Origin: Pocillopora damicornis
Lineage: Eukaryota
DNA: 64,000 nucleotides
Assembly (NCBI RefSeq): GCF_003704095.1
Contig: NW_020846475.1
Location: forward strand, 310,001 to 374,000
Reading direction: 5' to 3'
The translations under genes were made by a program, and so were the position numbers. The notes below the pieces were generated by a model, which saw nothing but the letters and a program-made list of their open reading frames with translations, made no database searches and had not been told where the DNA came from. Each line of letters starts with the position of its first letter. Position 1 is the stretch's first letter. Of the stretch, positions 11,426-64,000 are shown one piece after another.

Positions 11426-13801
11426 TTATGCTTCCATGGGCTCGCCTTCCTGCTTCCTGACCACTTCGTCTTGCATGGCCGGAATGAGCCCCTTGCGGAA
11501 GGCAACAGAAAGGAGATCTTCAGAAGTCTTGGTCTCAGGATATTGTCGCATTGCCCACCTCAAGTACACGGCAAATTCATTCCAATCCACGGTTCCATCT
11601 TCATCCATATCCATAGCTTTCAAGGCTTGCTTCGTCTCGTCGCACCTGTAGCAACCAAAGTATGGTGCCAAGAAGCCATTGTAAAACGCATCAAATTCCA
11701 GCTTGTCATCTCGCTGGCCGTCCCTCAAATCCCATTCATCCCACATGTCACGGATCTCAGCTATCAATACCTGAGCATGGGCCCTCGTTGGTTCCTCCTT
11801 GGTTAGGACTTCGGCCATTTTTTCAGTGAGATGACCACCAGAACGATCAAACAGCATAGCTAGGCCTGCGGCACTCATGTACTCTTCTTTGATGTTTTTG
11901 TGAAGATCTTCCAACATCACCTCCTTCATTCTCGTGCCTCGTTCGATGGTAAATTGAGGATCTTCTCCAAAGAGATTTTTGAGCCTTGTTACAATCATTT
12001 CAGCAGAGGCCAGTGTGGTCATTCGCATCAGTGGCTCTTCCCCAAAGAACTTCGCCAAGTCGAACTCGTTTATTCCAAGTTTGGTAGGCATACCGAACAC
12101 CATGTCCAAGGCTCGTTCTCCGTATATGGGTTGCAGTGGATATGGCTCGTATCCAGTGGTGACCCTGCAGATCTCTTGTGCAGCTTCTCGGAGGGCTGTG
12201 CAATTGTACTTCTTGAGAACTTTCTTGTTTCCAAGGCGGACCAGGTTCATCAGGGTTACGGTAGAACTGGCTGCACCCATGGATGCTCCTTGTATGATCA
12301 TACTTGCCCAGATACCATTTGCTCCGTTGGCCAAACATGACAACTGAGTGGTGTCCACGTGTCCCCACTTTTCGTGCACGTGAACCAGCAAGTGGCCATC
12401 CTTGAAACCACAATCATCCATTTCTTTTCGAACAGCTCTTATCCACGCTGCAAGCTGCTCTGGGAAGTATTTTCCAGACTCCTCGGTAACGATTCCAAAT
12501 GGACGGATAGCTAGGGGCAAGGAAGATAAATGACGGATGACCTTGAAAACACGCTTTGGCTTTTTGATCATGCCGTCGGGAAGATCGCGCAAGTTGACCA
12601 CCACCTTGGAATCTTTAGCTAGGTTGGCATGGATCCACTTCAATCTCTCGGTAAGAAGGTCGTTGATAGCTTCAACTTTGAACTTCTTGTAATTGATCCC
12701 TACGTAAACCAAATCCATTTCGATGATGGCGTTCCTGATGCCGAGTTCTTTCATTTTCCGTAGGCCAACAGGAATGGTCTCGGTATCAGGAACCCCACTT
12801 TTGTCAACGGATTCAAGTAACTCTGTGAAGGCCCAGAGATTAGTGAAGTCTTCTCCTGCATCGTGTAGCTGTTTGATGAAAGTATCACCCAGGCGAGTCA
12901 TGTGGGAGAAGGAAGCGACGATGATGTCTTTGAAGCCGACTTTTTTTATCTAATTTAGAAAAAGAATCAAGGGAAAAACGTTTAGAAACGCTAAAACACA
13001 GCTGAAATTTGTTTCGATGATAAAGGCTCCCGCTGTGCCTCTCAAGCGGAGAGACGGTAGAATTCTGTCCACAGTCCTTCCTATTAAACACCCGTTGATT
13101 CAAAGCAATCCTCTCCGGAATTTTTCAAATGTGTTGTTATGACATGGAGCATTTCGACAAATTATCATACCTAAAGCTACGCCGACGTATCGTATAAAAC
13201 GGTTGCATTTAATCATTGATTGGGAAACACGTAAAATACATGCATATATTAGACAAATAACGTCACGGTACTCCGAAGATGCTGAATCGACGTAATGTGT
13301 GGGAATTGAGGCTCTCAAGCATTGGGCAAATTTGAAGGTTCAATTTGCATGAAAATTTTATTCAAGTGGCTCTTGGCACGCCTGTAGGCTTAACTCTTAG
13401 ATTAAGCAAACTGGATCTTTTTTTTGTTGACGCTTACAACTCCAGCTTTCATTTCTTGATGACAGTTGATAGTAGTAAGCTTCTTCATCCAAAGCGTTGA
13501 GTCATTATGATGTTATGTCTTTATTGATATGTTTTACAAATTCGTAGTCATTTCAGACAACAGAAGAATGGAAATCCAACTCAAGGATAAAGCATAATGT
13601 ACCCACCTCCTTGTAAATTTTCCATTTGTTTTCTATGGTATGCCCACGCAACTGACCCACGGTACTTTCACGGAGGGAATTGTCCAACACAAAGACGTCT
13701 AAATTTTTTAGAACCTTGGATTCTTTGCCAGCCTCGTCAATCTCTTTCTGCATTTTTTGGATTCGTTCCTTGTAGTAAGCTTTGTTTGCCATGACGCTCA
13801 T
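11426..13801 (-). CDS. Uncharacterised DRE-TIM metallolyase (2-isopropylmalate/homocitrate synthase-like) with C-terminal EF-hands, 572 aa
   Basis: Exon 13801-13607 (MSVMANK...VFVLDNSLRESTVGQLRGHT...YKE|gt) splices in phase 0 to exon 12949-11426 (ag|IKKVGFKDIIVASFSHM...). Motifs: DNSLRE (cf. DxTLRD), HVH metal ligands, GANGIWAS..GASMGAAS (cf. GA..V..T..GERxGN), QPIYGERAL (cf. KPIVGxNAF) and EF loop DMDEDGTVDWNE. Confidence 0.85.
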
Positions 13802-26300: not shown

Positions 26301-29300
26301 TTGTTTCCAAGTCTTGCCATTTTCTTGATCTCTGCTTCCTAAGAGCATAATAAAAGAAAATGAATGACTCTAAGTGATGAACTGATTGACTGATTGATTG
26401 GCTGATTGGAGGAACAAATGATTAATCAACTGGATGACTGACAGACTAGGTGAATGAAATAGGGAATGAGTGAGTGAAAAATTGAATGAATGATCAACTG
26501 ACTTGATGAATAAATGAATTATAGATAAATAAGAGAGAGAGAGAGAGGCAGGGACCTAGCATTATGAGAAGTTATGATACTAAGATAGGGCATGAACTGA
26601 TGTTTGCATAGGGATTCAACATCATCGTCATCTTTAATTGCCCTATTTTAACAATACAAAAAAATTATTTACAGCATTAACAGCTAGAAGGTGAGGAGAC
26701 CCAGGAAGCCACTGGGCTTATGGGAGAGCCACCTCACTAACAATTATAATAAATCAAATGGAGAAAAAAAAAGTGCTGCAAATGTGTGGCTTGGCCAATT
26801 CAGTGATTATTTCAATAAAAACTCTTGCATTTTTGTCTTACAGCTAAAGTAGGTTTGACAAGCAAGTGACTGAAACAGGAAGAGAGTTCCAAATTTTAGG
26901 ACCTTGGTAGAGAATTGTAAATTGCTTGAGATTTGTACAGCACAAATGTGCTTGATAATTACTGGCTGTTCTGGTACCCTGTTGTGAATTTGGCTATTCA
27001 TTACAAAAAGATTGAAAAGCAATGGGGGAAATAAGTTATTTTTAAAATAAAACATAAATTTGGCAATTTCAAACGTATTGACTTGGAAAATATCTAAAAT
27101 TCTTTGATTGGAGAATAAAGAAGTGGACTGGGCTTGATAGTCTGAGTTAGTGATAGCCTGCACAGCTTGCTTTTGCAAGAAATAAATTTTATTTAAGTTA
27201 AATTTGGATAGATAATTGATTTTAATCAATTATTTGTCTCACCAGTTGTTTTTCTTGCCTCTCAAGAGCATTTTGATCCCTGGCTAATTCCCTCTGTGTT
27301 CTGTTCAGTTGCCTTTTCTGTTGTCTCATTTGTTCTTTAATCAAAAATGATTTAAATCAATTATCAAGAAAGATTTAGTTAATATACACAAACACATAAA
27401 AAATAGTGATATGAACCAGCATTCCAGGGTCTTCATGATGCCATTGTCAAGGTAAATGTTAGGGTAATGAATTCTGTGAGTATTGACAACTCCAGTAAAT
27501 TTACATGATAAAGAATGCAAGATTTAATAACAGAAATACTTTAACATGGATTGAGTCCAATTGCACATTCAGAGTTGCTTCTAGTTCTCTGATGAATAAC
27601 ATCTCATGCACTAAGCAATCAAATATATTTTTACATTTCTTTAAAACATAAAAGTGCCTCAGTAGGTCTTCAGAGACCATGCCATGTTTGTCTTGGTACT
27701 GTTTATATAAAGAAGATGACCATTGTTTATGTCCAACCACATGTACATGTAAGTGTACATGCGTATAGCCCACATAACCTGCATCACACAAGTCACATTG
27801 AAAACGATAAACAACACATTGTTGGCCTACAATCTGTGGCTTTTTCTCTTCCACTTTTAGGTGTCGGTTAATTTTACAGCTAACAAACACGGGTTGGACA
27901 GTTGTTTGTACTTGTAGGCTGAGGTCCTTGAGCTGTTTCTTGACATAATTTGCTGATTCTTGGTCCTTGATTGGTATGAACACCGGAACAATGGCCCTCT
28001 GTTCTTTTAGCACCTGTGAGGAGTGTTGGTCTGCTACTCTTGAATGAACAAAATTGTTGATGGTGGAATTAATCAGACATTTTGGGTATTTAAGTCTTGA
28101 AAAAAATTTCTTTAGGCAATCACACTCATCAGAGAAATATGTCCAAGAGGAAGATAATTGGTGTGTGTGATCAAGCATGGTTGTCCGTAAGCTTTGTTTG
28201 TAACAATTGTCTACATGGCTTTGATAGTGTAATAGTAGACCTGTTTTAGTTGGTTTTACATAAACATTGCTTTTCACTCAGGCTGCAATTATGGTTGAGT
28301 AGTTGAGTGCCAAGAAAAGGAAGCATGCTGTTCTTTCCTACCTCCACAGTGAATCTGATCAAAGTGTGGACATTATTAAGAGTGCATTGGAAATCAGTTG
28401 CTGTTGGTACATCAAGAATTATGGTGAGTGTGTCATCAACATATCTGAAGTAGAATGAAGGGAGCTGGTAAAGGGTTCCATCATGCTAAAGGGTTTCTTC
28501 AGTAGAGGACATGAGAATTGGCAAATTATGTCAAGAAACAACTCAAGGACCTCAGCCTAAAAGTACAGACAGCTGTCCAACCTTTGTTCATTAGCCGTAA
28601 AATCAACCAACACTTAAAAGTATCATGAACCAACAACACATTGTTTATCATTTTTGATGTGACCTGTGTGAGGTTATGTGGGATATAGGCACACACACTT
28701 ACACATACATGTGAACAGACATAAACAATGGTCATCTTCTATACATAAACACTACAAAGACAAATATAGCAAGGTCCCTGAAGACCTACTGAGGTGCTTC
28801 AACAGGGCATGAAATTGCGCCAAATACAGGCACCATTGTGACTAAATTTTTCACTTTGGCAACCAAATCCTGAAAAGTAATCACCAAACTGGCAACTAGA
28901 ATCATAACCATACCTAGAGATGTAGTGAATTAAAAAGATTTGCAAAGATAAATCCACGGCAAACTTCCTTGTTAAGTTTGTTTCCAAAATGCAGCACATG
29001 CATCTCGGTCTAAAACTATTCACCATCTTGGATTTAGGTGAGCTTGAAATTTGTATATCATCCATCCTAGTGTCCACTTTGTAGAACTTAATTTTGGAGG
29101 GTTTATCTAGAACTCTGATAGCATAAAAAAGAAAGGTTTTTTTTTTCTCTAAAAATGATGATCAATTTTTTTTTTAATTGGCTACCACTTTGAAAAATTT
29201 AGGAGCCAAGTGGCTATCAGAAAAAAAATTAATTTCACACCCTGTTCAATGTTTTAAATAAATGCAAAAATAAATTTGGTTGCTTTGTGCACAAGATATT

Positions 29301-30165
29301 GTTCATCTGAGAACTAAAAGCAACTCTGAACATGCCGTTTGACTCAATCTGTGCTAAAGAATTTCTGTAATTTAACCTTGCATTCTTTATTGTGTACTAC
29401 TTATACTTTACTACAGCGTAACTATACAGCAAGTTGGGAAGGCAACAATCAAAATTATTTTTCAGCATCAACACTTTTAGGATTCAATCAACCTCTAGTT
29501 CTCAACACTTATCAGGGCTTGTTTCATTTGCCAATAAGAAGCGGTAACCATCTGTTGTATCTAACCAAACTTAACAGATGAATCACTTTTACGACGCAAA
29601 CAGCAATTTTTCACGGGTAGCCCTTTTTAAATTTCACAATACCTCTCTCTTGCAGTCCACAGAAGTTATTTTATTTAAAATTCTTTATTCTTGAGTCAAA
29701 AGTTGTGATTAATTTAAATCTCACCTATGGTTGGTAACAGATGTAAAGAAATAATTATGCTAATAACGTAACTGAAAATATATGTATCTGACATTCAGCC
29801 GAACTGGCACGATTGGTCGAAATCATAGTTATACCTGAAAAATTTTGAGACCATCACCGTTAAAATAATAACATGGGAACTGATATACAGGCCATGCGTA
29901 TGAAGCAAGAGCTCGCAAAAAGAAAGAAATTTTCTCAAAATGGTACCCTGTATTTATCAATATAGGTTATATTAGATCTTCTATCCTTTAACATGACAAC
30001 CACAAACAAATCATATACCCTACCTTTCGGATCAGGTTTTTTCCTAAACATTTTGGAGAGATGATGATATATTTCTGTGTCTACAAAAGGCCAGTATTCA
30101 TTTGGCAACCTTTCCTAGTCGAGTTGACGTTACAGCATACTTCTCGTGACGAATCCGTCCGCCAT
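23342..30165 (-). CDS. CHMP2B: Charged multivesicular body protein 2b (ESCRT-III)
   Basis: Exons: 30024-30051 (MFRKKPDPK; possible upstream in-frame ATG at 30165), ~27244-27335 (EQMRQQKRQLNRTQRELARDQNALERQEKQL), ~26297-26338 (EAEIKKMARLGNKQ), ~25750-25902 (LAKQLVNLRKQKTK...KMAGAMSTATK), ~25089-25190, ~24170-24277 (NDTLESILDESGDEEEQDAIVNQVLDEIGIEISGK) and 23342-23458 (MAEAPSA...DADIEEMLAKLKA*). Confidence 0.95.
23568..23711. mobile_element. MITE with ~55-bp inverted arms
   Basis: GGATCAATGTCA..GCAACTGCGCACCTACCCCTCCCC versus GGGGAGGGGTACGTGCGCAGTTGC..TGACATTTATCC. Confidence 0.8.
26375..26548. repeat. Degenerate (TGAN)n tetranucleotide plus (AG)n microsatellite
   Basis: Runs of tgat/tgac/tgaa followed by agagagagagag. 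Confidence 0.7.
26680..27195 (-). mobile_element. 5'-truncated LINE (CR1/L2-like) 3' end
   Basis: The decayed ORF 'LNKIYFLQKQAVQAITNSDYQAQSTSLFSNQRILDIFQVNTFEIAKFMF' is typical of the post-RT C-terminus of CR1/L2 ORF2, and a 3' UTR follows. Confidence 0.75.
27430..28518 (-). mobile_element. Decayed Penelope-like retroelement (RT C-terminus plus GIY-YIG endonuclease)
   Basis: YFRYVDDT-like RT core at about 28430-28455, FLG motif, 'VYVKPTKTGLLLHYQSH', and the GIY-YIG segment 'VVYRFQCDLCDAGYVGYT...H...H...E..I'. Confidence 0.9.
28519..29370 (+). mobile_element. Inverted partial copy of the Penelope 3' (GIY-YIG) region, interrupted by a hAT MITE
   Basis: 'gcaaattatgtcaagaaacaactcaaggacctcagcct...gaagacctactgagg' matches the reverse complement of about 27655-27955. 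Homology resumes after 29250 ('tgttttaaataaatgcaaaaataaatttggttgc...gcaactctgaa'). Confidence 0.85.
28803..29244. mobile_element. hAT-like non-autonomous element with a 5-bp TSD
   Basis: TIRs CAGGGCATGAAATT / AATTTCACACCCTG, flanked by TTCAA on both sides. Confidence 0.8.
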
Positions 30166-40300: not shown

Positions 40301-42898
40301 AATCAATCACCTCTGGGCCCATGTTCGGTCGTACCTCCACGGTGGGAATACTAAGTCCGTCGGCTCAGACTCGTGTGTCAACAAAGTTGACGTACGGCGT
40401 TCCCGTACTCGCTCCAGCTCGACGCGGCAAGTCCACAATCCACCAGCTGTCCCACAGCATAATCAAGGAGGCAGCAGACAGCCAAATGGTCAACACGTCG
40501 GGGTCCCTCCGCAGACTGGGGGCAGTACACTGGGAGGTCTTCGGCGCTACGGCTCTCATGAGGTTCTTAGGAGGGACAGCTCTTCTGACAGTCTATCGTT
40601 GAAGAGGTCACCGCTGTTGCAACATCGTGCTTCAAGAGGCAGACGCCCACAGATCCACGTTCATGGCCAAAATGGCCGACCACCATTGCCGAGACCGTAC
40701 GAGTATAATCCGTCGCCAAGCCAGGCGGGTCCTACAGCTTCAATCTCATGTAGAGGTATAGGTATTAAAGTTCTAAGTGGATGCTTTTGCTTCTTTCTCT
40801 CTTTCTCTCTTTCATTTGCTTGTAGTATGGCTAAAGGGAATTCGATAATCTCTCAAGCGTCAGTGGGTGCATGAGAGCCACTGCTATTCGGACTGCAGAA
40901 GGGTGAGAACTCCAGCTCCAAAACACCTTGACCTGATTTGTTTCATTGCGTGTTTCTATGTAGTTCCTGGTCCGCAACCATTATCGCCGGCTGAGATGCA
41001 AGCTGTTATGATGGCGTCTGAGAAAGAAATGTTTAACAATCATCAACAAAATGCCTTCGCCGATATTTCTCCACATCAGCAGTATCAAGCAATGATGAAC
41101 GGCTTAACAGGTCAGTTTCTGGTCCGTCTGCTTGAATGTTTCGTGATAAGATTTTTCTTTGGCTCTGACCAACTCTCGAAATGGCTCTGTACTGTAAAAA
41201 TGCTAATTGGTGTTAATAGCTGTCATGCTCTTTCAAAACTGAAGAATTGACATTTCTATGATATTCAATAGCTGTAATTTTGCGCTTTTTTCCTTCGTGT
41301 TTTATGTAGGTCCTAGTGCTCTTTCATTGGAGGAACAAAGGTTGTTGCAGTCTTTGGATCGATTAAATGAAAGGCTTAAAGGTATCAGAACTATTCACTT
41401 CGTGCCTTTATGTACTTCTGTGTGCTACAAGTCGTTTCGCTTTGATTAGAAATAAAGGGGGTAAGTTTCTAGAGAAACTGTGGGGCTGCGTCGGTGGGAG
41501 AGCACCACAGAGTAATTTAGTATTATCAACTGAGTTGATAACGTGAATTGGCCACCGTAAAGAGTTTCAAAGCTGACGTTTCGAGCTTTAGCCCGTCGTC
41601 AGGGTGAAAGGCTAACGTCATACGTTCTGACGAAGGGCTAACGCTCGAAACGTCCGCTTTGAAACTCTTTACGGTGGCCAATTGACGTTATCAACTCAGT
41701 CGATAATACTAAATTGCCTACCTTTTACTAGAAAGTTTGGTTGATGACATCTCTGCGTTCTAGTCAAGGTTTCACATAGCGCCTGTTTCCTCTGTTAGAC
41801 TGTCCCAGCAACTCTACCAGTGATGTTAACACTACTAAAGACCTCTTCCTTGACCGTAAAGGAGGCATATCATGATATTTCGCGTTGTTTATCCCTAAAA
41901 AAAAACTATGCTCATCTTGCATGAAGTAGTCCAGAACATATCAACGTGTAAACAACAAAAACAACAAAATATAAATGGTTAGATATAATTTATGAAGTAT
42001 AAGAATGGTAGGTGGTCGTAAAATACAAAAAAATACTACAGAGGAGAAGGAAAAAACGTAGAAGGAATAGTGTTAAATTGAGATCAGGAAGATTTAAACG
42101 GGTGCAAATCAATAACTTGAAAAATTGAAATAAAATGTCACAATATCAGGGCTGTGATTTAGCGTTCTCATCTTACTCCCTAAAATGTTGTGATTCAAAT
42201 TTGACCTTTAATTTATTTGATTTATGTAAAGCTCAAGAAGAAGTCACAAAAGTCATTACTCAGAAACCCAGGATGAACGACAGTGGTTTTCGAAGGCCAC
42301 AACAGGTATCTCATTAACTGGTCATGAAAAAAAAAAGTGCTGGCTCTTTTCGGCCTAAATCGTGGGGCTTTCTTTATCGCGCAGTTTCAAGAAGAGCTAT
42401 GTCCTTTACTGAGAAATAGAGTTGGTCATGAGCACCAATAGAATTGGAATGAAGACTTCGAGTAGAATTTTGATTATACATGAAAACGGGCGTTAGTTAC
42501 TGTTACATAAGTCAGCTCCTCAGTGAGTTGCATTTGGTTCAGTTCATAAATCATCTGACTGCGAAATCGGATCTAGTGATTGTCTAGTTATTGAAGACTC
42601 AGATTTCTTTGGTCTGATGCTCTTGTAGTTTCGATTTCTGCTTTTTTCTCGAGTTCGCTCTGTGATCCTTCCTTGGATGTGAGCATGTCACTAACGTTTT
42701 ACCAGATTGTTGCACATCACTAGTCAGCTGGACTTCATGAATATTTCCTTCCATAGACTGTCATTGTGAAAAGCATTTCTATTCTACCTTTATTTATCAT
42801 CGTCAATCAATTTTTTTCAGAGTGCTCCTGGTTCGGGGATAAGAGGAACAGGGACTAAACAGAATTCTTCAGCCAGAAACTTCCTACATACGAGATGA
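34394..42898 (+). CDS. CEP126: Centrosomal protein 126 (KIAA1377)-like
   Basis: Exons 34394-34413 (MLKGAYS), 36225-36347 (DKFKS..RAKELSKETNRRRK), 36800-36970 (ALEDRKKE..EEQLRDKVLSKRKQDQQEATQRFQK), 37426-40755 (3.3-kb low-complexity exon containing LDKTPTDEEINHLW), 40963-41110, 41310-41381 (SALSLEEQRLLQSLDRLNERLK), ~42232-42305 and 42821-42898. The N-terminal coiled coil and C-terminal SLEEQ..L.SL..L.ERL motif match CEP126 as recalled. Confidence 0.8.
34414..36224 (+). other. U12-type (minor spliceosome) GT-AG intron
   Basis: 5' site GTATCCTTT; branch-like TTCTTTGAC (36206-36214) about 10 nt before the AG; no polypyrimidine tract; the phase-2 join keeps the frame (TC|T = Ser). Confidence 0.8.
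41514..41715. mobile_element. Foldback element with 89-bp arms, each carrying a minimal hammerhead-like motif
   Basis: Arms 41514-41602 and 41627-41715 are near-perfect inverted repeats. Each reads CTGACGA-nGGGCTAAnGCTC-GAAACGTC outward. A degenerate single arm lies at about 4350-4445. Confidence 0.8.
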
Positions 42899-56491: not shown

Positions 56492-57517
56492 TTAAGACGA
56501 CTTCCGTGATGTTATTTCCGCTTGTTGGATTTTGTTCGCTCTGATCTGAGAAAAAGACCTGCGCGTATTTGTCCAGATAGTTTTAAATTCTCTTTTTATA
56601 ATCCTGTTCAAGTATCCGTATAAATAAGGATTTATAACTCCCGTGGAGTAATAAAGTCCAGAGACAATGGACTGTAGTAATTCCGTCCCATAATTTCTTG
56701 TGTGTGAGGACCACAGGTTTACCACTATATATGGTGTCCAGGCGATAAATAACACTCCAACGATCGAGGCCAATGTCAAAGCTGTCTTGATATCTGCTCT
56801 GAGGGCAGAATGCGGCTTGCGCATGCAATATTGTCCCGATATGACCGCCGCTGACACTTGTGCACCAAGTTCGGGCTCAAGTACTGCAGCCATTTCCCTT
56901 TGACGCAATGCCTTTACTTCGCGGGCGATTTGCTTCGAATGACGTAAAGCTACTCGCAGTATACTGATGTAAATAAAAATAATAGAAACCAGCGGCATAA
57001 AGTAGATTGTAGTCATTTTGAAGTATGTAAAACTAACGGATATGTGGTAATTGGATTCGCAAAGCCACTGTCCAGGGAAAGCATAATAACGACTCCATCC
57101 CAGAAGAGGATAACACGCTGATAACAACGCATAAAACCAGATGAAGAATATGCATAAAACGGTCCTGTTACGGGTTACCCAGCCTTTGTATTTCAGAGGA
57201 GTTAGTATGGCTAGATACCTGTCCATGCTAACTGATAAAAGCGTCAAAACTGAGACTGCGCTCGTAGCATGTTGGAAGAATCCAATGATGTCGCAGCCAG
57301 TTTTACTCACGACAACGTAATTACTTGCCGTGGTTGCGATGCTGAATGGTAGTAGAAACAACGCCACCAGAATGTCATTGATGGCCAAATTCACAAGGAA
57401 AATACAGGAAGGAGAATGAAGACGCCTCACTCTATAGATAATGTAGCAGATTGCAGTGTTCCCAATGACTGTAGACACGATCATAAACACTATCACCACA
57501 ACTAAACCCACAGCCAT
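56492..57517 (-). CDS. Orphan class A GPCR (GPR161/GPR101-like features), intronless CDS
   Basis: 341 aa with 7 TM segments: GN (TM1), NLAIND (TM2), C3.25 and DRY, W4.50, PLLGWS, AWTP and NPYLY. An acceptor at about 57604 and upstream donors (about 57746, 61600, 61774) suggest 5' UTR exons. Confidence 0.92.
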   Translation of the reverse strand: MAVGLVVVIVFMIVSTVIGNTAICYIIYRVRRLHSPSCIFLVNLAINDILVALFLLPFSIATTASNYVVVSKTGCDIIGFFQHATSAVSVLTLLSVSMDRYLAILTPLKYKGWVTRNRTVLCIFFIWFYALLSACYPLLGWSRYYAFPGQWLCESNYHISVSFTYFKMTTIYFMPLVSIIFIYISILRVALRHSKQIAREVKALRQREMAAVLEPELGAQVSAAVISGQYCMRKPHSALRADIKTALTLASIVGVLFIAWTPYIVVNLWSSHTRNYGTELLQSIVSGLYYSTGVINPYLYGYLNRIIKREFKTIWTNTRRSFSQIRANKIQQAEITSRKSS

Positions 57518-60500
57518 GGTGATAACTTGTCCTAGCTTTCCATCATCAGTCAGTCTCTGTTAATATTATTGAATCCTTCCTTTCTTTAGAAACTTATTAG
57601 AGACCTGGTAAGAGAAAACAGAGTCTCACATACACTTCGCTGTCACTGAATTATAAATGACCCGCTACAGAGCAGATCTGAACAATAACCCGAACCATGG
57701 AAATAAAGAATGGATAAACAATACGAGATAACAAACAGAATCTCACCTTTTTGAGACTAGAGAATTTATCATCTCCTTTGAAATTATGGCCGGAAGAGCT
57801 AGCGGTTTTTTAACACTCAGTGAAATAAGGGTCAGAAAAAGTAAATTATCCCGCTCTCATCTATCCTATGCCCTTCGTTTTTAAACCGACAACTAAACAG
57901 GCAATTTAAACTATATTTTCCAGACTTTTCGCCTCACGAAAGAACGTTGCCGGCAAAGTGTGCACCAGGTTAATTAAAGCACAGAGGGTAGTTTTACAAA
58001 GTCTAAACCTTAGGTTACTAATTGAACATTTACATACGCATTCTTCCTAGGGTACTTAGGAACGAGAGTCGACAGAAAGAGCTGACCTCGTGGGAGAGAA
58101 ATTTTCTGGATTTGATACAGACAAATAGATGCTTCTTCATCAGCCAAAAAAGTGGTAGTTTGGCTTTTGGTAAATGAAATTATTTGTTAGATGATAACTG
58201 GTTCGTGAAAATTTCTTAACAATGATGAATGTCTGTTTCGGTGTCGCAAAGAATAATGAATTAATTGTGCCAAAATAATGGACACTTTTACATGACAAAA
58301 CGCATTCTTTGTGCCGTATTTTAGTTTCCATTGAAGATTCCGTGCAATTCTGCGGCGGTTTGATTTTTTATCAAGGGCGCCTACAAACATAAATATGACC
58401 AAATTTCCAAGGAAATAATTTCTCCAGAAGTCCCATACGATATCTAGAAAATTACGCAAGTAAGGGAGAATGATTTGTCCGCGATGGAAGACTTCGTTAC
58501 TGAGGACTTCCTCCGGCCTGGCAATTCTGTTTCATAAATAGCAATTTTCTTAAATTGTAACTCCTTGTGAGCACAATCTTTAAAGGAAATTATTTTGAGG
58601 CAGTTGCAAACCCTTCAGCCCTTAAGCTTGTGATCTTCATTTCAGAGGCTTTTCTTCTAGCATAGGTGGACATTAGGTAACAAAAGAATAGAATTTCTTA
58701 GCTTCCTCAATTATTTGACGTCTTTCATCTAAGCTTTCCGAAAAAAAGATAAAAGCCAGTTAACACTTAATTGCCTCCAAAATTTCTCAATCTGTTTGCT
58801 GACTGCATGCCTCAGCTCTCTTGTTTTGGTGAGCCTAATTATTTTGAATAAAATTGTCTTTTGGTTTGTCTAGTCTTTAGAGAGTTAAATTGGCCAATTT
58901 TACTCTTCCGATCACTTAGTTTTTTAGCAACGGCTTTCTTTGTCGCAATCCGATTTTACCCCGCTTTGGTCTTTATCAGTTTATCTACAGATCAAACGCG
59001 CTGTAGGTACCTTCTTCCTTGTGTCTGACATTTCCAATGTTGCTAACCTGGCGACGGTCTATCTCTCTGAGGAACAAATAAAAACAACACAGGATCGCCT
59101 GCGGAAACAGGAACAAAGCGCTTACGCTTTCATGTGAAATTTTCGCTATTTTCACTGATGAATTTAAAAAATAGTTTTAATTCGGAAAAGCCGGTCCGGT
59201 TTGGAAAACTTCCGAATAAAAATTAATCAAGTTTTGCCTGCAGAGTTCAAAAATCCTCAAACAGTTGATATCCACGATTTCACACGAAATGCTCTTGAAT
59301 ATTAATTCAGTGTCTTTTCATCCGAACACCTGTCATATTTCATAATTTTTAGCCTCGAATATATGTTACCACCTAAATGTGGTGCAGAAATGTTAAGAAA
59401 CAGACTTACAAAGCAGTTTTAGTCTGTAGGAAGTTTTTTTCTAATGAGGACTAAAAAGGTCTACTTTTTCCTTTTCCACGCGCCACAGCTAATCCAAATT
59501 CGAAAATTTCAAAAGTTAAAATGTTGCATTTACATGAAACCGTCTGAGTTGCACTTTCGACCTCTTTGAGTTGTGGAGTCTGCTTTGTTAAATTTTGTCC
59601 TCCAATAGCTATCGCATCACAGCAAAAGCATGCTTATCTCTGTAATGTAGGTTTATAAAACAGTTAACTGTGTTGCTGAAGGTTTTTTGTGCGCAAAGCC
59701 ATGAATAGAGGAACCGCATGTGTAATTAGCACACACAAAGCCACCGGCCCCGCTATGAAGTTGTGGATTAAGATTATATCCTCTGATTGTAGGGGACAAC
59801 AAATGTTTATCACACAGACCTTTCAGCAATTTTATTAAAAAGCCGCTAAACGAAGACGAACATTTAAAAACTTGGTTTCTTTTTCAACCTGTAGACAAAA
59901 AATGCTGCACTGTTGAAAAAATTTTTTTTCCTAGGCTTTTTCGGAAAGTGCTTTCCTATTAGAGAGAAGGAATCCCATCATTTCTTTCCTATAAAAAATC
60001 ATTTGATCATAATAAATGGGTGATATTCTAATAATTCATGTTGAAGTTATTGCACTTCCTCGTCAGCCGGAAAAAATTATTCAATATTTGGAAAAACCAA
60101 CAAAGTATTTGATAATTAATTCCTTTCATTGTTTACTAAGGATTATTTATTCTACCAGAAAAAGACTAGAATATTCCAAAATGAGGCAAATCCTTCCCGA
60201 AAGTCAGAGACTCAGTCGCTTTTAAAAGGAATTAACGTAGTATTTGTGGTAACATTGGTGTACATTTGCCTGCGTGAAGGAGGTGTTATCCTTAGAAGGA
60301 CTAGTTTAATAGAATGCTTGTTTAATGTCACTGATATGAATGGTTTTAAGTAGTATTTGTTTAGTACATGTAGTTAACGAGAAAAATGGCGCTCAAGTCG
60401 TCGCAATGGCTTCCATTTCGAAGCCTGATTTCGTTGAAATGAAAAAGAAAACGGAGAAGTTAACTGGCTTTTTTTTACGTATTTTTACGATATTTCGTGA

Positions 60501-62910
60501 TTTTAACCTCCCCAAAAATGAACTTATGAAAATAACATTTATCAACGAATATTATATGCGCCGCTGTGGAGATGAAGTCAAAGAAAATGTATTAACTCAC
60601 CATGATAGGTAGATGCTCGTTAAGGAGAAAAAATGAAATGTTTTTTAGAGCACAGACTTTTTTTCTACCTATTAAAGTCGTAATAGAACGTTACGTGTTA
60701 ATCGAAAGGTATAAAACTCCAGCTCACAGCTATTTCTCATATTTCGGTGCATTTTCAAGAGTGTTTTTTTAAGTAATTCGTTCCGAAGGGACTAGTTAAA
60801 TGGATGAAAACTAAAGCAACTAATCTTTCACAGAAGTAGGAAGAGAAGAATAAATAACCGAATTTTGAAATTAATTAAAGTCGACAGTAAAGATTAAATA
60901 TTCAAAAATAGACATTGCAAGCTTCAAGTCAGTTATTTAAACAAGCTCAAACAACTCAAATTAGTGCTGTTTCCTTTTTTTCTGCATGAAGCTTCGAAAA
61001 TGAAACTTTGCGGTTTCAACTTAATTTTTTTTCACTTTACACATCGATTTTAGAGTGCATGACTAACAATTCAGCGCGCCGTCAACACAACTTATTGTGG
61101 TGTAATAAGTAAACAGAATGGCCTTTACTTTTCTCCCAAAACACCAGGTGCTAGGGAACGAATACAGCTGAGTACTGATAAACCAGCCTTTCTAGAAAGA
61201 AGAAATATCTACTGAAGCTCGATCGGCAAAATCTAAGGGTTCCGTCCCGGTCGTTTTTGACATCCAGTCTCTATTCCCGTTGCTTTTGAAGGTGTTTGCA
61301 TCTTAAATTTTAGCTGAGTTAAATGCAAAATACAAAAAACATTTTGATCAGAGAGTAAATTCAAATTAATGTTTTGCAGACGCTACATAATTTGTAGGTA
61401 GGTGGCAAAATTGTCGCCCCGCGAAAAATAGATACCTCTAAAAATTAATTGCCTTCATCAATCTTAGGTAGAGAATATCAGGAATTCTCGGAGGCGTTTA
61501 TTCCCAAGGGAAACTAATTTTTGAACGGGATACGAAATGTTAAAAAAATAACACCGAGAGTGCTGAAAATGTTTAATGAAAAAGAGGCTGGAGTACTCAC
61601 CTCATCAGTTAGTTTTGCTGTTAGTCAGAGTTTTTCTTAAAAGAGAACTAACTGATTTTGGTCAGATTGAAATATTAAACGTATGCGCAGGACGAAATAG
61701 AAACTTCAGGCAAGACACAAATAATTAAAAATCAACCTTTAAATAACAAATTAACTGCTTCAAAATTTTCTTACCGAGTTGGGCTTCACACTTGCAAAAT
61801 TCAGTTTTAGATCGAAAATTTCCTCACGCAAGGAAAATTCTTCGTCGAAGCTCGAATCGCCCTTGGCATTCGACTGGTATTTCAATTAGCCAGTGCCTCC
61901 TAAACATAATGGTTCGCATCTTAAGACCCTTGGAGCTTGTGAATAACTAAATTGGACTGCGTATAACGTACATATCCGGTCAAATATAGCGCTCTCTCTT
62001 ACGGGTTATCTGTCATGTAAAATGCATTTTCATGTGATTGGTCCTTTTTATGTAAAATACCGGTTCGCAGGAAGCGAGAGGGGAATTAAATTATGTCATG
62101 TCTAATATTTAGCATGAAGAAGAAATAATGTAATTATGTAACGAATGCACATGTAAAACAACCTCTGTCTATTGTGAACTTTCTTCAGGTCATTAAGGAA
62201 TTAATTTATATTTTGGAGCTCACTAGGGGGGCTGAACTTATGTTTTTATTAAAACGGTTTGTTACCACTTTGAAAGGTTGGGGCGGAAAATGGGTACAAA
62301 AAGGTTTTACAGATCACAATTAACTCCACTGCTCACCATGTAAGGATTAAGATTACCTTTTCCGTTTGGGATGAATCACGATTTGCTGCCAACAAAGCTT
62401 AAGAAAAGTCTGGCAATCTTCGTAGAAATGGCTTTATGATTATCGTGCAATGAAGATTTTTGGGGGAAGAATTTGCGATTATCAAGTTGTTATCTTATAA
62501 TCAGGCGCGAAGAAGTAAGACCCTAATCGCACATTGTCATAACCCATTAGTAAAGCAGCAGTAGAGTACAAAAAGAAATATATCTCTTCTTGATCTGCTT
62601 TGAAGCTGATAGTTGATGTGTCTTTATTGGCTAAACTTATTAGACAAATAAATGTTATGTTGCCCTGGTGATAGCATAGCTGACGCATGCATTCATCTTG
62701 ATACTGTAAATGTTGTTTTCCTTCCCAAAAGTAGGACTTGTCAGCTTTAAAATCAAAGGATTAAATAGCATTTGGCTGTGATATTCGCTGGTATATTTAA
62801 ATCTGAGCCTTAAATTCTTAACGAATGGAATACCAACCGATGAATCACTCATTCCACAAGAATCTTGGAATTATCCTGAAGCACCCAATGATTGAACAAT
62901 AAAATTTTAC

Positions 62911-63260
62911 TTGTGAAAAAAAAATTCTTTGTCGGTATGACGCTGCGTTATGTCTCGGCCAAGTGACTCATCGGATACTTCTCATAAACTTTAAGCGAAG
63001 TCGTCGAGTATCGCGCTCAAAGTCCCGTTCGCAAAGTCAAGAAGTTAGCAGTCTGGCCCTCTATCGCAGAATGATTCCCAACTGAACATTGACGGGTTAT
63101 GACGGGTTATGACATATACGACGAAAAATTGTCAAATACTAATGAAAAAATTTTTTGTACGATGCTCGAAAAGTTCGCTTGTAATTTACGAAACGTATCT
63201 GATGAGTCTCTCGGCCGAGACGAAACGCTGCGTCATACCAGCCACGATATTTTTTCACAA
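62911..63260. mobile_element. Foldback element with ~115-120 bp imperfect arms, each containing a hammerhead copy
   Basis: The left arm (62911-~63030) matches the reverse complement of the right arm (~63150-63260), e.g. ggtatgacgctgcgttatgtctcggccaagtgactcatcggatac versus ggtatgacgcagcgtttcgtctcggccgagagactcatcagatac. Confidence 0.8.
63195..63238 (+). ncRNA. Type I hammerhead ribozyme motif
   Basis: GTAT (stem I) - CTGATGA - GTCTC/TCGGCC/GAGAC (stem II) - GAAA - CG/CTG/CG (stem III) - TC^ - ATAC (stem I'). All conserved core nucleotides are present. Confidence 0.85.
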
Positions 63261-64000
63261 ATATCTTGCAACTTTTTACTTTAAATAAATTTGTTTCCAC
63301 TTTTTTTAACGGTATTAGGCATTCACTTAAAATAAAATGTCCCCAAAACTATTCAGACTGATCGAATCATAATTGTTTTAGATTGAGATATTAAGACAAA
63401 ATGTTTACATTTTAAAATTGTTACAAGTAGATTCCATTTTGTCCTGCGACTGTTGAGCAATGAGTCACAGATGAAATCCAAATCCTTTTGGTAAGGAGAA
63501 AAATTGTCAACAAACCACAGGCGGGTGAAACGGTCGTGGAACTGTGATTGAATTAGGCCAAATTTTTTATTTTTGTATGTTTTTAGTAAATCTCAGAACT
63601 CTAAAAGTATATGTTTCCTAAAATAAGATGGTAAGATGTACAAAAGCAATTATATATGGATGGAGAAGAGATATCCTTCTATTAATTACTGGTTGAATTT
63701 CAGTTTCCTGTCGGTCTTTCGATGTTCTAAAGCTCTTTTGTGCAAACAACTGGAAAAGTTAATTAGAGGTTGTGTGATTAACACACACACACACACAACC
63801 ACACTTGGGTCACCTTTTGCGGTAACAACAAGTTCTCATTAAGGCGTTCCTTACTGTAAGTGATACGTTAGCGATAAAATACCCTTGGAAGCATCCTTGC
63901 TTCGGTTGAGGAGAGATATGCTGGTGAAATGTGCGATTAACGTACCTCTAAGGGCTTTCATTTTAAACTGTTCCATCCCGTAAGCAAGTTCAAGAGTTTC

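What the first reader, a model, noticed from the sequence alone, without database searches (positions are those of the whole stretch)
63195..63238. Intact type I hammerhead ribozyme with a self-complementary stem-loop II
Seen: the complete core CUGAUGA...GAAA...GUC with predicted cleavage after C63234, a 4-bp stem I (GUAU/AUAC), a 5-bp stem II and a very short stem III (ACG-CUG-CGU). Stem-loop II contains a perfect 12-nt palindrome, TCTCGGCCGAGA (63209-63220), and stem III is near-palindromic (ACGC-T-GCGT). Established: short type I hammerheads with weak stem III occur in Penelope-like elements and retrozymes of metazoans and often cleave as dimers. Inference: this copy may be active and may dimerise through two palindromes.
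Basis: partly seen in the sequence, partly recalled or inferred. Interest (0 to 1): 0.7.

Follow-up and report, generated by a model that had tools for sequence, protein, structure and literature searches.

The report
Coral retrozyme relic with antisense hammerhead
This hammerhead motif is one arm of an old head-to-head insertion of a small ribozyme-carrying repeat shared among corals; it likely lies backwards to the host transcript, is predicted to be locked in a long RNA hairpin and likely does not cut, and its perfect palindrome is a rare variant rather than a family trait.

Summary
The type I hammerhead at 63195-63238 is real (Rfam 25.3 bits, below cut-off). It is the + arm of a head-to-head insertion (62897-63290) of a ~215-225-nt hammerhead repeat: about 50 decayed copies here, younger subfamilies and short tandems in coral metagenomes. 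Stem I covaries between subfamilies. The family is unrelated, beyond the core, to the published coral retrozyme, which this genome also carries. Copies end 15-70 nt past the cleavage site, have ragged 5' ends and are often head-to-head, which is Penelope-type geometry (this scan has seen that on other DNA). The perfect loop II palindrome occurs in 5 of 107 copies. The family loop UUGGCC instead fits a 4-bp pseudoknot with the 3' tail (no real covariation), which this copy's U-to-C change weakens. The locus likely lies antisense in the 5' region of a GPCR transcript. The arms form a -140 kcal/mol hairpin that abolishes the ribozyme fold, and one RNA run shows clustered T>C changes suggesting ADAR editing (no matched DNA). 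Verdict: likely inactive relic; new family of a known kind.

The parts
63195..63238 (+). Type I hammerhead with intact core and stems; predicted cleavage after C63234
   Evidence: only 1 of 27 aligned copies from this genome with core and all stems intact; only exact hit of the core + stem II pattern in the assembly
63241..63244 (+). GCCA tail, predicted pseudoknot partner of loop II (63212-63215); here 3 of 4 pairs, because C63212 replaces the family U
   Evidence: searches (89.7% of cells paired, no shared compensatory change; 4.9% chance for a Watson-Crick match), look-alike L090
63209..63220 (.). Perfect 12-nt palindrome; rare variant, out of register with stem II
63160..63290 (+). Right arm: 5'-truncated repeat copy (about 0.6 unit) running through the hammerhead to the 3' tail; outer end approximate
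   Evidence: L001 1811-1941, 86% to a natural unit from L154
62897..63158 (-). Left arm: about 1.15 repeat units on the - strand; outer end approximate
   Evidence: L001 1548-1809, 86%
62935..62978 (-). Second hammerhead, broken (three core changes, one stem II mismatch); it would be the sense copy in the host transcript
62918..63255 (.). Long fold-back hairpin between the arms; candidate A-to-I edited sites on the - strand RNA at 62985, 63186, 63187, 63196, 63200, 63229
56492..57559 (-). Rhodopsin-family GPCR reading frame; its likely 5' region (intron or long UTR) covers the insertion
   Evidence: Pfam 7tm_1 E 1e-46; RNA cover and a GT-AG joint 58959-57605

Best explanation
The hammerhead is a well-preserved but likely inactive relic in one arm of an old head-to-head insertion of a ~215-225-nt non-coding hammerhead repeat (retrozyme type) that was likely copied into DNA by Penelope-like retrotransposon enzymes. 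Shown: the repeat family, its tandem units, the fixed 3' ends, the ragged 5' ends, the head-to-head pairs and stem I covariation. Inferred: in active parents the ribozyme cut multimeric transcripts into units, probably helped by a loop II / 3'-tail pseudoknot and possibly by stem III dimers; a Penelope-type RT/endonuclease primed on both sides of a DNA break and copied the RNA twice, some copies passing the cleavage site twice (circular or uncut template). At this locus there is one + strand hammerhead, so no unit-length RNA or circle can be released. The host transcript likely runs on the - strand, where the hammerhead is broken. Either strand is predicted to fold into a long hairpin, which on the - strand is likely edited by ADAR.
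For: Family: 76, 45 and 47 matches in three capped searches of G000, 67-95% identical; 94 of 120 metagenome loci score as family, with tandem periods of 214-216 nt and 225 nt in L009. Geometry: 3' ends 15-70 nt past the cleavage site in 30 of 34 (G000) and 90 of 102 (metagenome) segments, at the site itself in 0 of 34 and 1 of 102; head-to-head in 4 of 30 and 21 of 86 loci, tail-to-tail in none; one long and one short end in 13 of 18 scorable pairs. This matches the PLE traits in PMC8557442. Decay: mean 14% divergence in the hammerhead region, so 0.6 copies as well kept as this one are expected among 27 by chance. Hairpin -140 kcal/mol, z -10.4; stem II probability 0.85 to 0.000 with the left arm. 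Transcript: - strand splice joint and RNA cover falling towards about 64.3 kb; RNA contigs bridge the cleavage site in 3 of 4 runs. Editing: 7 of 8 substitutions in X1 are T>C, 6 in the arms (0.47 expected, P 1e-5; P 1e-4 without 63229), none with a 5' G on the - strand, one at an A-C mismatch.
Against: No cleavage assay. Contigs cannot show strand, ends or level, so a + transcript starting inside the insertion is not excluded. The T>C cluster rests mainly on one contig at depth 7.8 with no DNA from the same animal; X10 shows 2 of 3, and X5 and X9 show none (X9 covers only the left arm); 63229 C is also the family's majority base. The pseudoknot lacks shared compensatory changes. Circular folds of three natural units are no more stable than shuffles (z -1.4, +1.8, +0.7), unlike the published-type unit (z -3.2), so a circular RNA is not shown for this family. 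No parent PLE was found: no significant family hit in 30 + 30 PLE-ORF loci. No clear target-site duplication. Metagenome loci were picked by an intact-hammerhead pattern and several share flanks, so they are not independent.
Confidence: 0.72

Rival explanations
1. The repeat is not a circle-forming retrozyme but the detached terminal repeat (pLTR) of a Penelope-like element, or a protein-free mini-PLE, so the hammerhead trims PLE transcripts and no circle is involved.
For: PLE geometry; units not unusually structured as circles; mostly solos and short tandems; L066 joins a GIY-YIG-like frame (Pfam E 0.0084, below cut-off) straight to the family sequence.
Against: The G000 relative of that PLE (L254, 90% DNA identity) has its own, different terminal repeat and minimal hammerhead; only 1 of 67 upstream flanks held such a frame; no family hit in 60 PLE loci; the hammerhead has a true stem III, unlike the minimal PLE type (PMC4209133 passages); whole-unit tandems exist (L149, L154, L181).
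Confidence: 0.25
2. This copy is an active monomeric ribozyme that cuts a + strand (antisense) RNA starting inside the insertion, kept intact by selection.
For: Only fully intact copy among 27; 4% divergence in the hammerhead region against 14% mean; 3 of 4 pseudoknot pairs remain.
Against: 0.6 such copies expected by chance among 27, and it was picked for being intact; no sign of + strand RNA; stem I probability at most 0.003 even without the left arm, in a model without pseudoknots; RNA contigs run through the site.
Confidence: 0.1
3. One reading: the ribozyme works as a dimer held by two palindromes, loop II and stem III.
For: Stem III self-pairs between two molecules (-10.5 kcal/mol) but not within one (0.0); the loop II region cofolds at -24.9, and the family form at -20.7 with two G-U pairs. 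Stem III dimers are established (PMC4209133, PMC3088659 passages).
Against: Perfect palindrome in 5 of 107 copies; most of it follows from stem II itself plus GGCC; the duplex shifts stem II out of register; no tandem partner at this locus; loop II has another candidate partner in cis. A stem-III-only dimer in tandem parents stays plausible.
Confidence: 0.08

Closest known systems
Metazoan non-LTR retrozymes, coral type (Cervera and de la Pena 2020, PMC7229834; sections 13 and 17 and passages read, supplement not readable; PMC4918200 passages and Additional file 11 read as jumbled text)
   Same: 220-245-nt non-coding units with one type I hammerhead, GC under 50% (44-47% here), tandem and dispersed copies, coral host.
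   Different: Different family: no similarity beyond the core to the published-type unit in this genome (score 20 against 19.8 for shuffles); 5-bp stem II with a candidate pseudoknot; not tied to (TA)n as the published type is here; circle fold not unusually stable; decayed in this genome; frequent head-to-head pairs ('inverted' does not occur in the main text of PMC7229834).
EN+ Penelope-like elements and their pLTR hammerheads (PMC8557442 passages; PMC4209133 passages)
   Same: 5' truncation, partial tandems, inverted 5'-truncated neighbour, one-sided tail, hammerhead near the 3' end.
   Different: No reading frame; hammerhead has a stem III, not the minimal form; no parent element found.
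Vertebrate retrozymes derived from PLE pLTRs (bioRxiv 10.64898/2026.07.22.740005; parts 1-3 of 5 read)
   Same: Proposed PLE dependence; solo 'monomer' offspring regarded as unable to move; 8 of 9 predicted elements did not cleave in vitro there.
   Different: That work argues from co-occurrence and Xenopus sequence trees; here the argument is insertion geometry in a coral family with no matching pLTR.
Pseudoknot-stabilised hammerheads (Perreault 2011, PMC3088659 passages)
   Same: [quoted passage not shown]
   Different: Not reported for coral ('coral' 0 occurrences); here predicted only.
ADAR-edited inverted repeats in coral non-coding RNA (PMC5850803 abstract and passages)
   Same: Clustered A-to-G in non-coding regions with a nearby inverted match, 5' G depleted.
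   Different: The source of the hairpin here is a single head-to-head retrozyme insertion; the evidence is one or two contigs.

Membership tests
Type I hammerhead ribozyme | Core CUGANGA, GAAA, NUH with stems I-III, stem I open | tested here: met
   (25.3 bits, below the gathering score of 34)
Type I hammerhead ribozyme | Covariation of stems | tested here: met
   stem I A-U 49 / C-G 44 sequences, essentially one event between subfamilies; stems II and III show only single-sequence double changes
Type I hammerhead ribozyme | [quoted passage not shown] | tested here: inconclusive
   4-bp loop II / tail complement, 89.7% paired, 4.9% by chance, no shared compensatory change
Type I hammerhead ribozyme | Self-cleavage | not testable with these tools
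   no assay; contigs cannot show ends
Non-LTR retrozyme | 150-450-bp non-coding unit, GC under 50%, one type I hammerhead per unit | tested here: met
   214, 216, 225 nt; GC 0.44-0.47
Non-LTR retrozyme | Tandem units with consecutive complete hammerheads | tested here: met
   met for the family (L149, L154, L157); not met at this locus, which has one hammerhead per strand
Non-LTR retrozyme | Unit folds into a stable, highly paired circle | tested here: inconclusive
   57-64% paired, z -1.4, +1.8, +0.7 for three natural, partly decayed units; published-type control z -3.2
Non-LTR retrozyme | Expressed as circular and linear unit-length RNA | not testable with these tools
   only contigs of poly(A)-type runs were served; no RNA 'goes back' joint among the 12 rows shown
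Published Acropora/Pseudodiploria retrozyme family | Sequence homology of the unit | tested here: not met
   that family is present separately, 39 exact motif hits
Autonomous EN+ Penelope-like element | RT and GIY-YIG frame upstream of the hammerhead repeat | tested here: not met
   none at this locus; 1 of 67 upstream flanks, and that PLE has its own pLTR
PLE-mobilised non-autonomous element | Fixed 3' end, 5' truncation, partial tandems, head-to-head pairs, one-sided tail | tested here: met
   against PMC8557442
PLE-mobilised non-autonomous element | 3' similarity to an autonomous partner | tested here: not met
   no significant hit in 60 PLE-ORF loci, the top 30 of 143 and top 30 of 134 matches

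The most novel reading that the evidence does not exclude
A second coral-wide retrozyme lineage, with a pseudoknot-stabilised hammerhead, is copied by Penelope enzymes from both sides of a break, so that about one insertion in five is a ready-made RNA hairpin; these act as the coral counterpart of inverted Alus, silencing their own ribozyme and feeding ADAR, and this one shapes processing of a GPCR transcript.
Probability: 0.25. Interest if true: 0.55.

Novelty: new member of a known kind. Interest (0 to 1): 0.3.

Why it matters
The single motif is ordinary: corals carry thousands of hammerheads (PMC7229834). The family adds a coral case for the proposal that Penelope enzymes move animal retrozymes, with insertion ends that can be scored, and a testable pseudoknot hammerhead in an animal repeat. 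If the editing holds, it names one source of the double-stranded RNA that coral ADAR edits. It is also a caution for motif scans: an intact hammerhead can be a chance survivor on the silent strand.

Tried and rejected
Rfam Hammerhead_1 search of the whole genome found nothing and its controls did not ring, so it is uninformative. Parent PLE: no significant family hit in 60 PLE loci; L066 looked like the parent, but the PLE's relative has another pLTR and the L066 downstream flank does not match it. Target-site duplication at this locus: best exact repeat 8 nt of T-rich sequence, lying inside the arms, rejected. Selection on this copy: explained by chance plus ascertainment. Identity with the published coral retrozyme: rejected. 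Head-to-head calls for the published-type family were confounded by (TA)n self-matches and are not used. Circularity and RNA ends: contigs only, no verdict. Twin-priming of the L1 kind was set aside because both arms carry their own 3' end. The supplement of PMC7229834 could not be read; it lists 16 Acropora hammerhead families and other coral retrozymes, so this family may already be drawn there. Repbase and Dfam were not available. Five paper searches were run; none of the listings or passages that I read described this family, but none was a sequence search.

Full report
Observation. The motif is as described. Rfam Hammerhead_1 matches 63195-63238 over the whole model at 25.3 bits, E 0.0077, below the family cut-off of 34. 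The 44-mer alone does not fold as a hammerhead in the energy model (z 0.23). The host is likely a stony coral: the RNA runs that hold this DNA are labelled coral or marine metagenome, and the genome has 39 exact hits to the published coral retrozyme motif.

What surrounds it. The hammerhead lies in the right arm of a 96-nt, 77% complementary inverted repeat. Against a natural repeat unit, the locus is about 1.15 units on the - strand (62897-63158) followed, after one base, by about 0.6 unit on the + strand (63160-63290), 5' ends meeting. The left arm has its own hammerhead with three core changes and a stem II mismatch; that such core changes kill cleavage is recalled knowledge. The locus therefore cannot release a unit-length RNA or offer a tandem partner.

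The family. Three capped DNA searches of G000 gave 76, 45 and 47 matches at 67-95% identity, with no young group; I analysed 30 distinct loci, median 83.5% to a natural unit. A pattern scan of metagenome contigs stopped at 120 loci; 94 scored as family, 26 were left out (mostly bacterial-looking hammerheads), 8 duplicates were dropped, 86 remained; some of these still share flanks. They fall into two main subfamilies with tandem periods of 214 and 216 nt; L009 in G000 has 225. The published-type coral retrozyme is a separate, younger family in the same genome, sits in (TA)n and has no similarity beyond the core.

Structure. I aligned 106 of 119 distinct hammerhead segments (13 with large indels or truncation left out) plus one distant relative. 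Stem I covaries, A-U in 49 and C-G in 44 sequences, in effect one change between subfamilies. Loop II is UUGGCC in 13 of 27 G000 copies and 56 of 79 metagenome copies; a perfect palindrome is found in 5 of 107 rows, by two different changes. The family form still self-pairs with two G-U pairs (-20.7 against -24.9 kcal/mol), but that duplex is out of register with stem II. Loop II UGGC is complementary to GCCA just 3' of stem I: 89.7% of cells paired, like stem III (90.7%), yet without shared compensatory change; a Watson-Crick match of that size arises in 4.9% of random tails, and in 52% if G-U is allowed. Such pseudoknots are common and rate-critical in hammerheads (PMC3088659 passages), and a likely bacterial hammerhead in the scan, L090, has the same loop with five such pairs. 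The U-to-C change that perfects the palindrome here breaks one of the four pairs. Stem III pairs between molecules and not within one, as known for animal type I hammerheads (PMC4209133 passages).

How it moved. 3' ends lie 15-70 nt past the cleavage site in 30 of 34 G000 segments and 90 of 102 metagenome segments, and at the site in 0 of 34 and 1 of 102; 5' ends are spread. Head-to-head pairs occur in 4 of 30 and 21 of 86 loci, tail-to-tail in none. Of 25 pairs, 18 had both ends in range and 13 of those join a long to a short end; this locus scored as symmetric (51/60), with uncertain A+T-rich ends. These are the listed traits of Penelope insertions (PMC8557442 passages). I infer priming from both sides of a break by a PLE RT/endonuclease. 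Copies that cross the cleavage site twice (L009, L013, L017) need a circular or uncut template. PLE mobilisation was proposed in PMC7229834 (section 17) and argued for vertebrates in bioRxiv 10.64898/2026.07.22.740005. No parent was found in 60 PLE loci. In L066 a family copy replaces the normal end of a PLE, right at the last codons of a GIY-YIG-like frame; this single case could be a template switch, an insertion or a misassembly. The circle criterion is open: three natural units fold no better than shuffles.

Is this copy alive? It is the only one of 27 with core and stems intact and the only exact pattern hit in the assembly, but at 14% mean divergence 0.6 such copies are expected. A GPCR frame lies on the - strand at 56492-57559. 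RNA contig cover runs from it through the insertion and stops near 64.3 kb in X1, X4 and X5 (X1 keeps scattered low cover beyond; the control run X20 also has a contig break there, so this is a weak hint), and X4 shows a joint that fits a - strand GT-AG intron. Whether the insertion is in an intron or a long 5' UTR is not shown. RNA contigs bridge the cleavage site in X1, X5 and X10; X9 does not cover it. The arms fold at -140 kcal/mol on + (z -10.4) and -146.8 on -; stem II probability drops from 0.85 to 0.000.

Editing. In X1, 7 of 8 substitutions over 62700-63500 are T>C, 6 within the arms against 0.47 expected from that run's background over 8.3 kb (P 1e-5; 1e-4 for five). On the - strand these are A>G, none has a 5' G, one sits at an A-C mismatch, and five move away from the family majority. 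X10 has 2 T>C among 3 differences; X5 and X9 have none. There is no DNA from the same animals; X20 has only 3 differences over a contig that spans five of the six sites, so the reference bases exist in another sample. Clustered editing of coral non-coding dsRNA is known (PMC5850803). I hold editing at about 65%.

Earlier notes of this scan describe the same Penelope-type geometry for retrozymes in other genomes and for a tRNA-like element in this one; none matched this sequence. I had scored the geometry; the long/short-end count was prompted by those notes.

Verdict. Real hammerhead, new family of a known kind, likely silent at this locus. The two-palindrome dimer idea is unlikely. Interest 0.3.

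Noticed in passing
window 41565-41664: Head-to-head pair of minimal hammerheads (no stem III) in an inverted repeat, of the kind found in Penelope terminal repeats; the same motif occurs in PLE locus L203.
   Followed up: partly
window 27501-28277 (-), with + strand pieces at 28494-28821 and 29242-29394: Fragment of a multi-copy Penelope-like frame (143 matches in G000) with inverted pieces beside it; no relevant Pfam hit, the label rests on recalled motifs and a weak match to L066.
   Followed up: partly
window 11426-12949 (-): Uninterrupted 507-aa frame with only weak EF-hand hits at its C-terminus; the N-terminal part recalls a metal-dependent TIM-barrel lyase (recalled, untested).
   Followed up: no
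window 63090-63109: 10-nt tandem duplication in the left arm; X1, X5 and X10 have only one copy.
   Followed up: partly
window 62877-63027: Run X10 has a contig that skips 151 nt covering most of the left hairpin arm, without splice-type ends: deletion allele or reverse-transcription skip.
   Followed up: no
runs X1 and X4, laid on L062 6995-7247: A contig from another family copy has higher depth (27 and 84) than this locus; loose ends in X4 suggest unique flanks, so likely a solo copy inside an expressed transcript.
   Followed up: no
L216-L252 (G000): The published-type coral retrozyme is young here (mostly 90-98% to one unit), ends in and inserts into (TA)n, with one tandem of 225 nt.
   Followed up: partly
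L066:147-632: GIY-YIG-like frame joined through a 12-nt fold-back to a 5'-truncated family copy, in place of that PLE's own terminal repeat; possible template-switch chimera.
   Followed up: yes
L071-L078, L090, L091, L145-L156 and others: About two dozen bacterial-looking type I hammerheads share the same stem II; L090 has the same loop with a five-pair tail complement.
   Followed up: no
L255-L281: An abundant, near-identical PLE family in G000 with its own minimal hammerhead about 170 nt past the matched endonuclease stretch, often on both strands.
   Followed up: no
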